DNA of 33,080 bases from a virus. Taxonomy: Duplodnaviria > Heunggongvirae > Uroviricota > Caudoviricetes. Within the stretch, counting starts at the first letter, position 1; each line of letters opens with the position of its first letter. The stretch lies in the IMG/VR virus record IMGVR_UViG_2896601577_000002; one strand, given 5' to 3'. The position numbers were made by a program, and so were the translations under genes. The notes beneath the pieces were generated by a model. That model worked only from the letters and a program-made list of their open reading frames with translations, made no database searches and was not told where the DNA came from. Positions 27,907-33,080 of this stretch are shown in pieces.

Positions 27907-28233
27907 ATGACTAAAAATACTCGTTTTTCCCCCGAAGTCCGTCAACGGGCAGTCCGTATGGTTCTGGAAAGTCAGGGCGAATATGACTCACAATGGGCGA
28001 CAATTTGTTCCATTGCTCCAAAGATTGGCTGTACGCCGGAGACTCTGCGTGTCTGGGTTCGCCAGCATGAGCGGGATACCGGGGGCGGTGATGGAGGGCT
28101 CACCACCGCTGAACGTCAGCGTCTGAAAGAGCTGGAGCGTGAAAATCGTGAACTGCGCCGCAGTAACGATATCCTTCGCCAGGCTTCCGCTTATTTTGCG
28201 AAGGCGGAGTTCGACCGCCTCTGGAAAAAGTGA
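27907..28233 (+). CDS. IS629 OrfA
   Basis: Identical product to copy 1. Confidence 0.9.
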
Positions 28234-29120
28234 TGCCACTGCTGGATAAGCTGCGTAAGCTGTACGGGGTCGGACCGGTATGCAGTGAACTGCATATTGC
28301 CCCGTCAACGTATTACCACTGTCAGCAACAGCGACATCATCCTGATAAACGCAGTGCCCGTGCGCAGCGCGATGACTGGCTGAAGAAAGAGATACTGCGC
28401 GTATACGATGGGAATCATCAGGTATACGGTGTGCGTAAAGTCTGGCGTCAGTTGTTACGGGAAGGTATCAGAGTGGCCAGATGCACTGTGGCACGTCTCA
28501 TGGCGGTTATGGGACTTGCCGGTGTTCTCCGGGGTAAAAAGGTCCGTACGACCATCAGCCGGAAAGCCGTTGCCGCAGGCGACCGCGTAAACCGTCAGTT
28601 CGTGGCAGAACGACCTGACCAGCTGTGGGTGGCTGATTTTACTTACGTCAGCACATGGCAGGGCTTCGTCTATGTGGCGTTCATCATTGATGTGTTTGCC
28701 GGATACATCGTGGGGTGGCGGGTCTCATCGTCCATGGAAACGACATTCGTGCTGGATGCTCTGGAGCAGGCGTTATGGGCCCGTCGACCGTCCGGCACGG
28801 TCCATCACAGTGATAAAGGTTCTCAGTATGTATCGCTGGCCTACACACAGCGGCTTAAGGAAGCCGGATTACTGGCATCAACAGGAAGTACAGGCGACTC
28901 GTATGACAACGCGATGGCGGAGAGCATCAATGGTCTTTACAAAGCGGAGGTAATACACCGTAAGAGCTGGAAAAACCGTGCAGAAGTGGAACTGGCCACA
29001 CTCACGTGGGTGGACTGGTATAACAATCGACGATTGCTGGAAAGGCTGGGCCATACTCCTCCGGCAGAAGCAGAAAAAGCTTATTATGCTTCCATCGGAA
29101 ACGATGATCTGGCAGCCTGA
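28230..29120 (+). CDS. IS629 OrfB transposase
   Basis: Identical product to copy 1. Confidence 0.9.
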
Positions 29121-29652: not shown

Positions 29653-29853
29653 TCATTTCTCGTTATTTGTCATGCTGGCCGGGCGCAGATGCGTTGCATC
29701 TGTTGCCAGCCTTCTCCTGCAGGCTTCAATAACCCACGCTGAAAAGTTTCCTGAACCTTTCAGATCAAGAGCGATGTTAATTTGTTCAATCATCTGGTTT
29801 GGAAATCGGATGTTGCGGGTTGTTGTTCTGCGGGTTCTGTTCTTTGATGACAT
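29653..29853 (-). CDS. hypothetical small basic protein (66 aa)
   Basis: ORF; possible relation to small prophage DUF3950-type proteins is recollection only. Confidence 0.4.
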   Translation of the reverse strand: MSSKNRTRRTTTRNIRFPNQMIEQINIALDLKGSGNFSAWVIEACRRRLATDATHLRPASMTNNEK

Positions 29854-29899
29854 AATGTTTCCCCATATTCAGTGTTGCTGATTTGTATTATCTGAAGTT

Positions 29900-31420
29900 G
29901 CTTTTACGTTAATTTGATGCAGATCAATCAATACGATAGTAAGGCAGTATGACTTTCCGTGAGACAGATGCTGGCCAACGTGGGATATTTAACGCGGGTT
30001 AACATCGTTGTCAGAGCCGCATGGGTGAGCTGTTGCTACACCCCGGTATTTCCACCACGGAGGCCAGCATGAACAACAATAACACATTGTACGTCGGGTT
30101 AGATGTTCACAAAGAATCGATTACTGTCGCTTATGCTATCAATTCAGAACCTGTTGAACTGATGGGTAAAATTGGCACATCACCTACTGATATTCAGAAT
30201 CTTTGTAAACGTCTCAGGTCAAAGTCATCGCAGGTCAGTATCGTTTATGAAGCGGGGCCCTGTGGTTATGGACTTTATCGTCGGCTGGTGAAATCCGGTT
30301 TTGACTGCATGGTCTGCGCCCCCTCACTTATCCCGAAAAAACCGGGGGAGCGGGTTAAAACCGATCGCCGTGATGCCATCAGACTTGTGCGTTCACTGCG
30401 TGCAGGAGATCTTTCTGCTGTCTACGTACCCGGCATTGAAGATGAGGCATTCCGGGATTTGGCCCGGGCATGGGCATCTGCCCGCGATGATTTACGGCAT
30501 GCAAGGCAACGTCTGAAATCGTTTCTTCTGGTTCATGGGGTCCATTATGTCGGGCGAGCAGATTGGGGCCCTGCACACCGACGCTGGCTCAGCAAATACT
30601 CATTCGAAAGTCCCTGGCGACAATTAGCTTTTGACGAACACCGTCGTACAATAGAAGACCGGCAGGCACAATGTGAACGGCTGGAATCCGCCCTGAAGGA
30701 GGCCGTTACCGAATGGAGGCTGTATCCGGTAGTAGAGGCGCTGCAAGCCATGCGAGGGATTCAGTTTATTACTGCGGTTGGATTAATTTCTGAACTGGGT
30801 GATCTGACCCGTTTTGAACATCCACGACAACTGATGTCATGGTTTGGTATCACGCCATCAGAATATTCATCGGGTGGAAGCAGACATCAGGGCAGCATTA
30901 CCAAAGCCGGAAACAGCTATGCCAGAAAGCTATTGGTCGAGGCAGCGTGGAGTTACCGTCATCCGGCACGCATCAGTCCGGCAATACAAAAAAGGCAGGA
31001 AAATTTACCCCGCCCCGTCATTGACAGAGCATGGGATGCTCAACTCAGGCTTTGTAAGAGGTATCGAAAACTTCAGGCCAAAGGAAAGAATGTCAATATT
31101 ACAATTGTTGCTGTTGCACGTGAGCTGGCGGGTTTTATCTGGGATATGGGCCGAATAGCAATGTCTGTCGCACAACAACCACAATGTCACAAATAAAAAT
31201 GAGAATAACCAGTTCCCTGAAGGCGACGTAGCCCGGTACAAGAGTAACCCACGTTAGCGCTTGGCGACGGCGGAACAAAGCTGATTCGCGACGTAAGAAA
31301 GTGGCAGGCTCATATGACGGACCTCTGTAATGCGGTATCCAACCCGCGAATATCAGCGTGATTCACCGTCGGATTTACTGCTACGTCGCCCTCAGGGAAT
31401 TAAACCTAAAAAGAAAATCG
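29900..31420 (+). mobile_element. IS110-family insertion sequence; boundaries cannot be set from sequence alone
   Basis: DEDD-type transposase gene; this family lacks conventional terminal IRs and TSDs. Confidence 0.3.
30069..31196 (+). CDS. IS110-family (DEDD) transposase
   Basis: N-terminal YVGLDVHKESITVAY and KTDRRDA motifs; C-terminal Transposase_20-like region; SD GGAGG. Confidence 0.85.
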   Translation: MNNNNTLYVGLDVHKESITVAYAINSEPVELMGKIGTSPTDIQNLCKRLRSKSSQVSIVYEAGPCGYGLYRRLVKSGFDCMVCAPSLIPKKPGERVKTDRRDAIRLVRSLRAGDLSAVYVPGIEDEAFRDLARAWASARDDLRHARQRLKSFLLVHGVHYVGRADWGPAHRRWLSKYSFESPWRQLAFDEHRRTIEDRQAQCERLESALKEAVTEWRLYPVVEALQAMRGIQFITAVGLISELGDLTRFEHPRQLMSWFGITPSEYSSGGSRHQGSITKAGNSYARKLLVEAAWSYRHPARISPAIQKRQENLPRPVIDRAWDAQLRLCKRYRKLQAKGKNVNITIVAVARELAGFIWDMGRIAMSVAQQPQCHK

Positions 31421-31439
31421 TCAAAATTAGAGATTCCGG

Positions 31440-33080
31440 TTTGACACGGAAAGTCATATCAGCGTCAACGGAGCACCGTATTGACGCTTATTTATTGGTG
31501 AGTGCTACGTTCCATGGCAGGAGTTCGTCAACACGGTTGGAAGGCCATTCCGGCAGTACGCTCAGGATATAGCGCAGATACGCTTCCGGATCGATACCGT
31601 TCAGTCGGCAGGTGCCGATCAGCCCGTACAGTAGCGCACCACGCTCTCCACCGTGATCGCTGCCGAAGAACATAAAGTTTTTCTTTCCGAGACAGACTGC
31701 ACGAAGCGCTCTTTCCGCGGCATTATTATCCGCCTCAGCCAGACCATCATCACTGAAGTTGCACAACGCAACCCAGTGCTTCCTGATATACCGGAACGCA
31801 TCTCTCAGACGGCATTTTTTCGATAACGTGTGTTCTTTCTCCTGCATCAGCTTATACAGGGAAGTCAGTAGCGGTTTACTCTGCATTTGCCTGACCGCCA
31901 GGCGTTCAGACACCGGCAACCCGCGTATTTCGTGCTCGATGGCGTACAGCTCACCGATTAGTTTCAGGGCTTCTTCCGCTGTCGCGCTTTTGGTACTGAT
32001 ATATACATCGTGGACTTTGCGCCGCGCATGAGCCCAGCATCCTGCTTCCGTCAACGCGCCGCCTTCTCGTTCGGCACTGAACAGCCGATCGTAACCATTA
32101 AACGCATCTGCCTGCAGGATACCCCGGAAGGGACTAAGGTGCTGCTCCGGATGTTTACCCTGATGGTCCGGTGAGTAGGCGAACCAGACCGCCGGAGGCT
32201 CTGGCGAACCGGCATTCCTGTCATCCCGGACATACGTCCAGATATATCCTGTTTTCGCCTTCTTCCTGCCCGGTGCCAGCACTTTTACTGGTGTGTCATC
32301 AGTGTGAACTTTGCGGCTGTTCATCACATAACGGTACAGAGCATCATTCAGCGGCGTCATTAACTGGCAGCACGCGTCAACCCAGTTGGAGAGTAATGCA
32401 CGGCTCAGTTCGACACCCTGACGGGCAAAAATTTCACTCTGACGATACAGTGGCAGGTGTTCGCAGTATTTTCCCGTTAACACGCGGGCAAGTAACCCCG
32501 GGCCCGCGATACCACGCTCTATCGGACGGGATGGTGCCGGTGCTTCAACGATGCAGTCACATTTTGTACAGGCTTTTTTTACCCGTTCTGTGCGGATCAC
32601 TTTCAGAGCGCTGCTCACCAGTTCCAGTTGTTCTGCGCTGACTTCCCCCAGATAATCCAGCTCACCGCCACACTCCGGGCAACAGCTTTCTTCTGGCTCC
32701 AGGCGATTTATTTCGCGGGGCAGATGCTCCGGTAACGGGCGACGATGACGAGACTGTCGCAACTGGCGGGGAACCTGCGGATCGTCTTCCCGCCCACTGT
32801 AACGATCACTGTCCTGTTCGCGTTGTTTCAGCAGGGCCTCAGCCTGTTCAACTTCACGACGCAGTTTTTCAGAACGGGTACCGAACAGCATCCGGCGCAG
32901 TTTTTCTATCTGAGCCCGCAGATGTTCTATTTCCCGTTCATCTTCTTCGATCTTTTCTTCGGCGCGGGCCAGTGCAGAGCGCAGGAAGGCCTCCGTCTCT
33001 TCAACCAGACTCAGTTGCTGGTCTTTCTGACGGAGCTGGCATTCCAGTTCTGCAATGCGAATGAGGTATTTTTGATTCAT
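31440..33080 (-). mobile_element. IS66-family element, partial (tnpC end; remainder beyond the right edge)
   Basis: TnpC-like gene followed by an IR-like palindromic sequence TAAGCGTCAATACGGTGCTCCGTTGACGC. Confidence 0.5.
31488..33080 (-). CDS. tnpC: IS66-family transposase TnpC
   Basis: 530-aa product with N-terminal coiled coil, Cys cluster CPECGG...CTKCDC and IS66 TnpC-like core; ATG sits exactly at the window edge. Confidence 0.85.
   Translation of the reverse strand: MNQKYLIRIAELECQLRQKDQQLSLVEETEAFLRSALARAEEKIEEDEREIEHLRAQIEKLRRMLFGTRSEKLRREVEQAEALLKQREQDSDRYSGREDDPQVPRQLRQSRHRRPLPEHLPREINRLEPEESCCPECGGELDYLGEVSAEQLELVSSALKVIRTERVKKACTKCDCIVEAPAPSRPIERGIAGPGLLARVLTGKYCEHLPLYRQSEIFARQGVELSRALLSNWVDACCQLMTPLNDALYRYVMNSRKVHTDDTPVKVLAPGRKKAKTGYIWTYVRDDRNAGSPEPPAVWFAYSPDHQGKHPEQHLSPFRGILQADAFNGYDRLFSAEREGGALTEAGCWAHARRKVHDVYISTKSATAEEALKLIGELYAIEHEIRGLPVSERLAVRQMQSKPLLTSLYKLMQEKEHTLSKKCRLRDAFRYIRKHWVALCNFSDDGLAEADNNAAERALRAVCLGKKNFMFFGSDHGGERGALLYGLIGTCRLNGIDPEAYLRYILSVLPEWPSNRVDELLPWNVALTNK

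What the first reader, a model, noticed from the sequence alone, without database searches (positions are those of the whole stretch)
31215..31397. 18-bp near-perfect inverted repeat enclosing 147 bp just downstream of the IS110-family transposase gene
CCCTGAAGGCGACGTAGC (31215-31232) and GCTACGTCGCCCTCAGGG (31380-31397) are reverse complements with one mismatch, starting 19 bp after the transposase stop. IS110-family recombinases are guided by an element-encoded structured non-coding RNA (bridge/seek RNA) located in a non-coding end of the element. A long closing stem around about 150 nt fits such an RNA; it could also be a MITE-like insert or the element terminus. The 5' non-coding region (about 29900-30068) is the alternative location.
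Basis: partly seen in the sequence, partly recalled or inferred. Interest (0 to 1): 0.55.

Follow-up and report, generated by a model that had tools for sequence, protein, structure and literature searches.

The report
Closing stem of ISSso6 bridge RNA
The inverted repeat is the closing helix of a roughly 190-nt guide RNA (bridge RNA or seekRNA) that the insertion sequence ISSso6 encodes after its transposase gene to choose its insertion site; this kind of RNA is known, and a bridge RNA was already predicted in this end of ISSso6.

Summary
The repeat is real: 19 of 20 bases pair, or 22 bp counting one G-U pair (31211-31232 / 31380-31401). It is the only repeat of this quality in the window.

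It lies inside ISSso6, an IS110-family element of the IS1111 group (29944-31462). It sits in the 3' non-coding region, 61 nt before the true right end. It is neither a MITE nor the element terminus.

All 16 ISSso6 copies examined keep the repeat. Relatives with 49-81% identical transposases, from several phyla, keep a 19-27 bp helix at the same place with different sequence. Twenty of 22 pairs show compensatory changes. G-U pairs outnumber A-C pairs 141 to 16, so the RNA is read from the transposase strand.

The helix encloses two hypervariable segments:
- 31254-31261 is the reverse complement of the core AG plus the right flank.
- 31290-31297 equals the left flank plus AG.

Both co-vary with each relative's own flanks (0 of 10000 permutations reach the observed match). 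Three empty sites give the target GTA|AG|CG(C/T)T. This is the tip of the IS66-family terminal repeat, which is where ISSso6 sits in this window.

Durrant et al. 2024 (Supplementary Table 5) already list a bridge RNA in the right end of ISSso6. This is a known kind of feature and of low surprise.

The parts
29939..29943 (.). GTAAG: the first 5 bases of the terminal inverted repeat of the IS66-family (ISEc23-like) element that ISSso6 has split. The last two bases (AG, 29942-29943) are the left copy of the core dinucleotide.
   Evidence: Uninterrupted ISEc23-type ends in three contexts read ...GTAAG|CGTCAACGGAGCACC. Empty and occupied sites compared.
29944..30068 (+). ISSso6 left end (125 nt). 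It starts GCAG and carries the left sub-terminal inverted repeat TATGACTTTCCGTG at 29948-29961.
30069..31196 (+). ISSso6 transposase gene (375 aa, DEDD type).
31211..31232 (+).
31242..31311 (+). Target-binding module: helices P3 (31242-45 / 31308-11) and P4 (31249-52 / 31301-04) close an internal loop capped by hairpin P5 (31264-31289). About 70 nt, near the size of the short seekRNAs (82-96 nt) of other IS1111-group elements.
   Evidence: Sizes of other seekRNAs.
31254..31261 (+). V1, right-target guide: TTAGCG plus CT. Its reverse complement AG+CGCTAA is the core plus right flank, so it pairs with the top strand.
31290..31297 (+). V2, left-target guide: GACGTA plus AG. It is identical to the left flank plus core, so it pairs with the bottom strand.
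31316..31370 (+). Proposed donor-side module: helix P2' (GACGG 31316-20 / CCGTC 31366-70, invariant, so unproven) and hairpin P6 (31331-35 / 31344-48).
31350..31357 (+). ATATC+AG is identical to the right IS end plus core (left-donor guide). The next base, C31357, equals the first base of the right flank (a one-base handshake).
31376..31380 (+). TACTG, complementary to CAGTA of the left IS end (29945-29949). Tentative right-donor guide in the multiloop next to P1.
   Evidence: Read from the sequence. One mirrored change in L090 (TATTG opposite CAATA). Otherwise invariant.
31380..31401 (+).
31441..31462 (+). ISSso6 right end: TTGACA (31441-46, a possible -35 of a circle-junction promoter), the right sub-terminal repeat CACGGAAAGTCATA (31445-58), then TC and the right copy of the core AG (31461-62).
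   Evidence: (TTGAC is invariant in 38 relatives).
31463..33080 (-). The rest of the targeted IS66-family element: the repeat continues CGTCAACGGAGCACC..., and tnpC occupies 31488-33080 on the minus strand.

Best explanation
The two arms are the 5' and 3' strands of helix P1. P1 closes the roughly 190-nt bridge RNA (long seekRNA) encoded on the transposase strand in the 3' non-coding region of ISSso6, an IS1111-group member of the IS110 family.

P1 closes a multiloop with two branches. The first branch (P3-P4, internal loop, P5) is the target-binding loop. Its 5' side, V1 (UUAGCG-CU), pairs with the top strand of core AG plus right flank CGCTAA. Its 3' side, V2 (GACGUA-AG), pairs with the bottom strand of left flank ...CGTA plus core. 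The second branch (P2', P6) and the multiloop joiner carry AUAUC-AG-C, which is the right IS end plus core plus the first target base, and UACUG, which is complementary to the left IS end. Together these specify the donor.

The DEDD recombinase bound to this RNA would bring the circularised IS junction (...GTCATATC-AG-GCAGTATGAC...) to a target GTA-AG-CG(C/T)T and exchange strands at AG. No target duplication results.

Shown here: the helix and its covariation, the strand, the guide-flank matches, the exact ends, the core and the target. Inferred from published work on relatives: transcription as the 3' part of the tnp transcript (probably from a circle-junction promoter), binding to the recombinase, and the strand-exchange chemistry. 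P1 itself most likely acts as a scaffold that fixes the two arms. It may be trimmed off in a shorter mature form.
For: (1) The helix is conserved. All 16 ISSso6 copies keep it. Nearly all of the 80 relatives (transposase 49-81% identical; Burkholderiaceae, Xanthomonadales-type bacteria, Rokubacteria, Alphaproteobacteria, Deltaproteobacteria, Acidobacteriota) have a 19-27 bp helix spanning mostly about 190 nt (range 140-234), 10-115 nt after the stop codon, with unrelated arm sequences.

(2) Covariation in 37 close relatives: 98.4% of cells pair, 17 pairs carry double changes, 0 of 500 shuffles reach this, and slid controls pair at 35-41%. In relatives not used to build the model, 20 of 22 P1 pairs show changes on both sides.

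(3) Strand: G-U 141 against A-C 16. The model scores 199 bits on the plus strand and 32 bits on the minus strand.

(4) Guides: the V1 reverse complement matches the relative's own right flank at 4.45 of 6 bases, against 1.78 for other elements' flanks. V2 matches its own left flank at 3.30 of 6, against 1.60. Each gives 0 of 10000 permutations. The base after AUAUCAG equals the first right-flank base in 26 of 31 relatives (0 of 10000 permutations). The donor-like segment changes from AATATCAG to CATCAGAG where the right end changes from CATATC-AG to CATGAG-AG.

(5) Three empty sites give GTA|AG|CG(C/T)T with AG shared, as the guides predict.

(6) The order of the guides (top-strand match 5' of the bottom-strand match) and the downstream location match the published IS1111 rule.

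(7) Durrant et al. 2024, Supplementary Table 5, lists ISSso6 with 'Detected Bridge RNA End' = RE and group IS1111. They also note donor-binding nucleotides in a multiloop in many IS1111 elements.
Against: There is no expression or binding data for ISSso6 itself. No sigma-70-like promoter lies near the region, so transcription is inferred. Rfam 15 has no matching family. P2' is invariant and the right-donor guide rests on one mirrored change, so the donor side is only partly resolved. In ISEc11 the short 82-nt seekRNA supported more transposition than the long form (42% against 16% of cells; source data seen). P1 may therefore belong to a precursor rather than the most active species. Some decayed copies have uncompensated changes in the arms (L011, L006).
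Confidence: 0.9

Rival explanations
1. P1 is mainly a processing or insulating element. A long perfect double-stranded RNA helix would be cut (for example by RNase III) to release the guide RNA from the 3' part of the transposase transcript. It might also keep the guides from mispairing with mRNA. On this view it is not part of the active ribonucleoprotein. This refines the main explanation rather than replacing it.
For: IS1111-group seekRNAs occur as long (148-172 nt) and short (82-96 nt) forms, and the short form is thought to derive from the long one. The target-binding module alone is about 70 nt. No nearby promoter was found. An A-C mismatch is conserved inside the helix in 28 of 37 relatives.
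Against: The candidate donor-matching segments (31350-31357, 31376-31380) lie outside the short module, and the second is directly next to P1. This suggests the full P1-closed RNA has a role in donor recognition. No cleavage data exist.
Confidence: 0.25
2. The repeat marks a MITE-like or foreign insert of about 187 bp that landed in the ISSso6 non-coding region.
For: Terminal inverted repeats of 20 bp around a short non-coding segment look superficially like a MITE. Some E. coli loci carry only parts of the region.
Against: The helix is at the homologous position in relatives from several phyla, with compensatory changes. There is no target duplication next to the arms. The partial matches that were inspected are internal-deletion or truncated derivatives of ISSso6-type elements, and none is bounded by the arms. 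G-U pairs show the constraint acts on RNA.
Confidence: 0.01
3. The repeat is the terminus of the IS, or a DNA-level site (a cruciform or protein-binding palindrome, or an intrinsic terminator of the transposase gene).
For: It lies just after the stop codon and close to the element end.
Against: The ends are defined by 16 copies and 3 empty sites at 29944 and 31462, 61 nt beyond the right arm. No run of T follows the helix, and the terminator scan reports nothing there. A DNA palindrome would not tolerate 66 G-T pairs against 9 A-C pairs in P1. The arms are 147 nt apart, too far for a simple operator.
Confidence: 0.02

Closest known systems
seekRNAs of IS1111-group elements ISEc11, ISPa11, ISKpn4 and ISPst6 (Siddiquee et al. 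2024, PMC11187229)
   Same: The non-coding region lies downstream of a DEDD transposase, and the element has sub-terminal inverted repeats. [quoted passage not shown] Insertion makes no target duplication. The size is comparable: long forms are 148-172 nt, against 187-191 nt here.
   Different: The ISSso6 RNA has not been detected experimentally. The transposase is only about 20-24% identical to most of those in their identity matrix (row seen). The target differs (GTAAGCG). I could not compare the closing helix directly, because figures are not held and the ISEc11 record was not in the collections.
IS621 bridge RNA (Durrant et al. 2024, PMC11208160; Hiraizumi et al. 2024, PMC11208158)
   Same: One RNA carries a target-binding internal loop with two guides flanking a shared core dinucleotide, plus donor-matching segments. 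A base that pairs only after strand exchange resembles the handshake guides.
   Different: IS621 encodes the RNA in the left end, upstream of the gene. Its guide order is reversed, its core is CT rather than AG, and both of its loops are simple internal loops of consecutive stem-loops. Here a 22-bp helix closes a multiloop and the donor-matching bases sit partly in the multiloop. Durrant et al. note this for many IS1111 elements.
Predicted bridge RNA of ISSso6 in Durrant et al. 2024, Supplementary Table 5
   Same: The same element. The table lists 'Detected Bridge RNA End' = RE and group = IS1111.
   Different: The table gives only the end in which a covariance model matched. It gives no structure, guides, core or target for ISSso6. 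Those are worked out here.
IS4321 / IS5075 (IS1111 group), which target the terminal repeats of Tn21-family transposons (Partridge and Hall 2003, cited)
   Same: An IS1111-group element whose specific target is the terminal inverted repeat of another mobile element.
   Different: The victim here is the IS66 family (tip GTAAGCG), and insertion is 5 bases from the tip. ISSso6 also uses chromosomal sites containing GTAAGCG.

Membership tests
IS110 family, IS1111 group insertion sequence | DEDD-type transposase with the IS110 N-terminal domain and the Transposase_20 C-terminal domain | tested here: met
   Pfam PF01548 (E 2e-11) and PF02371 (E 8e-24). RefSeq names it an ISSso6 family transposase.
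IS110 family, IS1111 group insertion sequence | Sub-terminal inverted repeats of 7-17 bp with short terminal extensions | tested here: met
   A 14/14 repeat, TATGACTTTCCGTG 29948-29961 / 31445-31458. It lies 4 nt and 2 nt inside the ends defined.
IS110 family, IS1111 group insertion sequence | Short left end, and a long right end holding the non-coding region downstream of the gene | tested here: met
   Left end 125 nt, right end 266 nt.
IS110 family, IS1111 group insertion sequence | Sequence-specific insertion without target duplication, with a core dinucleotide shared by donor and target | tested here: met
   Three pairs of empty and occupied sites: GTA|AG|CG..., with AG present once in the empty site and at both junctions.
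IS110 family, IS1111 group insertion sequence | A circular intermediate whose junction forms a promoter | not testable with these tools
   Only consistent with the sequence: TTGACA (31441-46), a 17-nt spacer across the junction, then CAGTAT (29945-50). TTGAC is invariant in 38 relatives.
Bridge RNA / seekRNA | Conserved secondary structure supported by covariation, on the transposase strand | tested here: met
Bridge RNA / seekRNA | An internal loop with two guide segments that match opposite strands of the target on either side of the core, co-varying with the target | tested here: met
   V1 and V2 compared with each relative's own flanks: 0 of 10000 permutations reach the observed match. They predict GACGTA-AG-CGCTAA; the observed sites are GTA-AG-CG(C/T)T.
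Bridge RNA / seekRNA | IS1111 rule: the top-strand match lies 5' of the bottom-strand match | tested here: met
   V1 (complementary to the top strand) is at 31254-61 and V2 (identical to the top strand) is at 31290-97. Rule.
Bridge RNA / seekRNA | Donor-binding segments matching both IS ends | tested here: inconclusive
   The left-donor match ATATC-AG and its +1 handshake are supported. The right-donor match TACTG rests on invariant bases and one mirrored change.
Bridge RNA / seekRNA | The RNA is expressed, binds the recombinase and is required for transposition | not testable with these tools
   Shown only for other elements.
Bridge RNA / seekRNA | Match to a curated RNA family model | tested here: not met
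   Rfam 15 gives no hit in 31197-31465 even at E up to 10. The published model of Durrant et al. did detect a bridge RNA in the right end of ISSso6.

The most novel reading that the evidence does not exclude
In this clade the guide RNA may be a distinct architectural variant: a multiloop locked by a 19-27 bp helix that carries a conserved A-C mismatch. The helix could do more than scaffold. It might serve as an RNase III-type maturation site that couples guide release to transposase mRNA decay, or as a switch between a precursor and an active short form. Separately, ISSso6 may be a dedicated parasite of IS66-family ends that disables them by splitting their terminal repeat.
Probability: 0.2. 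Interest if true: 0.45.

Novelty: already known. Interest (0 to 1): 0.25.

Why it matters
The finding confirms that sequence reading alone can spot a bridge RNA by its closing helix. It turns a one-word table entry for ISSso6 ('RE') into a full map of helices, both target guides, the core AG, the exact ends and the target GTAAGCG.

The practical gains are modest:
- The ends of ISSso6 can be annotated correctly (1519 bp plus a shared AG).
- The frequent association of ISSso6 with IS66 elements in E. coli and Shigella is explained.
- About 30 natural guide-target pairs from one clade are now available. These could inform reprogramming rules for IS1111-type recombinases, whose donor recognition is less well understood than that of IS621.

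Tried and rejected
- Rfam scan of 29700-31700 at E up to 10 found nothing relevant.
- The single-sequence minimum-energy fold suggested a rod in which 31263-31292 pairs with 31345-31373. The alignment instead supports a local hairpin P5 and a separate P6, so I dropped the rod.
- I first placed the ends at (G)TAAGGCAG ... TCAGCG with a CG core, from flank comparison alone. Each of the three empty sites was 4 nt longer than my joined flanks, and this corrected the core to AG and the ends to 29944 and 31462.
- GTAAG..GGCAG..TATGAC at 31293-31318 looks like the left junction and was considered a donor guide. I rejected it because GGCAG does not follow changes in the left end and TATGAC is not conserved in relatives.
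- The RNAalifold helix P2 (CC.G / CGG) and my alternative P2' are both invariant. Neither can be proved.
- No promoter was found upstream of the RNA.
- The ISEc11 reference record could not be fetched for a direct comparison. The supplementary files hold no seekRNA sequences as text.
- The 5' non-coding region folds moderately (z = -2.4) but has no model hit and no guide-like segments.

Full report
**Observation.** The inverted repeat exists as described. One search reports arms 31213-31232 and 31380-31399: 20 nt, one mismatch, 147 nt apart. With one G-U and one A-U pair it extends to 22 bp (31211-31232 / 31380-31401). Among inverted repeats with arms within 400 nt in the whole 33-kb window, it is the only one above 88% complementarity. 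I estimate about 4e-4 such repeats by chance. The 187-nt segment folds with z = -4.5. The gene just upstream (30069-31196) carries both Pfam domains of IS110-family transposases.

**What the element is and where it ends.** A similarity search against complete E. coli genomes identifies the element as ISSso6. It has a perfect 14-bp sub-terminal inverted repeat (29948-29961 / 31445-31458), the hallmark of the IS1111 group. Sixteen copies from different genomic contexts share sequence from about 29940 to about 31464. Flank comparison alone misled me about the exact ends. I therefore joined the flanks of three insertions and recovered the uninterrupted sites, each of which was 4 nt longer than my joined flanks. 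Comparing them shows the target GTA|AG|CG(C/T)T, with AG present once in the empty site and at both junctions of the occupied site. AG is therefore the core dinucleotide. ISSso6 is GCAGTATGAC...GTCATATC plus one AG: window 29944-31462, 1519 bp. The repeat lies wholly inside the element, in the 266-nt 3' non-coding region, and its right arm ends 61 nt before the right end. This rules out the 'terminus' reading.

**Conservation of the helix.** All 16 ISSso6 copies keep both arms; one copy has a C-to-T change that gives a G-U pair. A protein search found thousands of relatives. A scan of one genome per species returned 80 loci with transposases 49-81% identical to the query, from Burkholderiaceae, Xanthomonadales-type bacteria, Rokubacteria, Alphaproteobacteria, Deltaproteobacteria and Acidobacteriota. 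In almost all of them the best long-range helix in the 340 nt after the stop codon is 19-27 bp and spans mostly about 190 nt (range 140-234). Its sequence is related to ISSso6 in the close relatives and unrelated in the distant ones. Examples are TCAGGGATCGGGAAGGGGCGCGGCC in L070 and CTCAGCACAGTGGCAGAGGCCGCG in L096.

**Covariation.** On an alignment of 37 close relatives, RNAalifold predicts the closing helix and four inner helices. Counting pairs on that structure gives 98.4% of cells paired and 17 pairs with changes on both sides. No shuffle out of 500 reaches this, and slid controls pair at only 35-41%. I built a covariance model from these 37 sequences. [quoted passage not shown] In the window its only plus-strand hit is 31210-31402 at 199 bits; the same interval scores 32 bits on the minus strand. 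On that second alignment, which is fitted to the model, 20 of the 22 P1 pairs show changes on both sides.

**Strand.** G-U pairs outnumber A-C oppositions 141 to 16 over all helices, and 66 to 9 in P1. The constraint therefore acts on an RNA read from the transposase strand, not on DNA.

**What the helix encloses.** The alignment of whole non-coding regions shows strongly conserved blocks broken by two hypervariable blocks.
- V1 (window 31254-31259 TTAGCG, followed by CT) sits on the 5' side of an internal loop closed by P4 and capped by hairpin P5. Its reverse complement, AG+CGCTAA, is the core plus the right flank of ISSso6 insertions.
- V2 (31290-31295 GACGTA, followed by AG) sits on the 3' side of the same loop. 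It equals the left flank plus the core.

Across relatives, the V1 reverse complement matches the element's own right flank at 4.45 of 6 positions, against 1.78 for the flanks of other elements. V2 matches its own left flank at 3.30 of 6, against 1.60. In each case none of 10000 permutations reaches the observed value. This is the defining signature of a bridge or seek RNA target-binding loop. The order (top-strand match first) is the one reported for IS1111-group elements.

**Donor side.** Further 3', AUAUC-AG (31350-31356) is identical to the right IS end plus core. The next base equals the first base of the right flank in 26 of 31 relatives (0 of 10000 permutations), which resembles a handshake position. 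In the distant group whose right end is CATGAG-AG, this segment reads CATCAGAG instead of AATATCAG. UACUG (31376-31380), directly before the 3' arm of P1, is complementary to CAGTA of the left end. Apart from one mirrored change (L090) both sides are invariant, so I rate that assignment as tentative. The helix I call P2' (31316-20 / 31366-70) is also invariant and so unproven.

**Mechanism.** The anatomy fits the published model. The RNA is made as the 3' part of the transposase transcript: no promoter lies near it, and TTGACA in the right end could form a junction promoter with CAGTAT in the left end after circularisation. It binds the DEDD recombinase. V1 and V2 read both strands of the target around AG, and the donor-matching segments read the circle junction. 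Strands are then exchanged at AG. P1 ties the two arms into one multiloop. Durrant et al. remark that many IS1111 elements have donor-binding bases in a multiloop rather than a simple internal loop. Other IS1111 elements yield a long (148-172 nt) and a short (82-96 nt) RNA, and the short ISEc11 form was the more active in one assay. P1 may therefore belong to a precursor, and the roughly 70-nt target-binding module (31242-31311) may correspond to the short form. I cannot test this.

**Comparison with what is known, and novelty.** Bridge RNAs and seekRNAs of the IS110 and IS1111 groups were described in 2024. ISSso6 itself appears in Supplementary Table 5 of Durrant et al. with 'Detected Bridge RNA End' = RE and group IS1111. 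The kind of feature and its location in this element are therefore already published. New here, but incremental, are the structure, the guides, the core, the corrected ends and the target. Rfam 15 has no corresponding family.

**Context in the window.** The target GTAAGCG is the tip of the terminal inverted repeat of IS66-family elements. Three uninterrupted ISEc23-type ends read GTAAG|CGTCAACGGAGCACC after unrelated flanks. In the window ISSso6 has split exactly such an end: GTAAG lies at 29939-29943, the rest runs from 31463, and tnpC is on the minus strand. About a third of the near-full-length E. coli hits share this IS66 context. This parallels IS4321 and IS5075, which target Tn21-family repeats.

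**Verdict.** The feature is a known kind, already predicted for this element, and its interest is low to moderate.

Noticed in passing
window 29939-29943 and 31463-31500; L105-L107: ISSso6 targets GTA|AG|CG(C/T)T, which is the tip of the IS66-family (ISEc23-like) terminal inverted repeat. In the window it splits that repeat 5 bases from its end. About a third of the near-full-length E. coli hits share this IS66 context. The six papers in the library that mention ISSso6 did not appear, from their titles and abstracts, to be about its target.
   Followed up: yes
L017 1990-2200 and L018 1990-2160 (Shigella/E. coli assembly GCA_031665325.1): In two copies, a complete ISSso6 is followed by a second partial 3' region. 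The right end is fused at AG to the element's own V1 DNA (TTAG|CGCTTGG) in one copy, and to AAAG|TGGCAGG in the other. AGCGCT is palindromic, so the DNA encoding the right-target guide itself resembles the target. This suggests insertion into its own guide region followed by deletion.
   Followed up: partly
L007 1939-2139 and L010 (E. coli O2:H16 and O169:H41); similar hits in many ST131 genomes: A roughly 200-bp internal-deletion derivative of an ISSso6 relative (82% identical). Its 63-bp left end is joined directly to the last 140 bp (homologous to window 31329-31468). It lacks the transposase gene, the left arm of P1 and both target guides. It again lies next to an IS66-like repeat (AG|CGTCAATACGG).
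   Followed up: partly
L006 1662-2093 (E. coli UMNF18 and many others); L011 1980-2318 (E. coli C10): These are decayed ISSso6-type remnants. One has a 195-bp deletion corresponding to window 31181-31375, which removes the left arm and the interior. The other begins abruptly at the position of window 31178. Both breakpoints fall within a few bases of each other, just before the stop codon.
   Followed up: no
window A31221 opposite C31391: The single mismatch in the closing helix is an A-C opposition that is conserved in 28 of 37 close relatives (A-U in 6, G-C in 3). This suggests a selected irregularity rather than decay.
   Followed up: partly
window 31441-31446 with 29945-29950: TTGACA in the right end (TTGAC is invariant in 38 relatives) would sit 17 nt from CAGTAT of the left end once the element circularises. 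That would form a junction promoter, as reported for other IS1111 and IS110 elements.
   Followed up: no
window 29970-30068: The 5' untranslated part of ISSso6 folds (z = -2.4) with GCUGGCC (29970-76) paired to GGCCAGC (30062-68). This overlaps the GGAGG ribosome-binding site just before the ATG at 30069. It might dampen translation of read-through transcripts.
   Followed up: no
L088 2551-2743 and 2929-3121 (uncultured Desulfosarcina MAG): The covariance model finds two identical-scoring copies of the RNA module 378 nt apart downstream of one transposase gene. This could be a tandem duplication of the guide region.
   Followed up: no
window 27907-29120: An IS3-family element with two overlapping ORFs (108 aa and 296 aa) lies about 800 bp upstream of ISSso6. 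From memory the ORFs look like IS629/IS1203; no tool confirmed this. Together with the IS66 element, this makes the end of the window an IS-rich patch.
   Followed up: no
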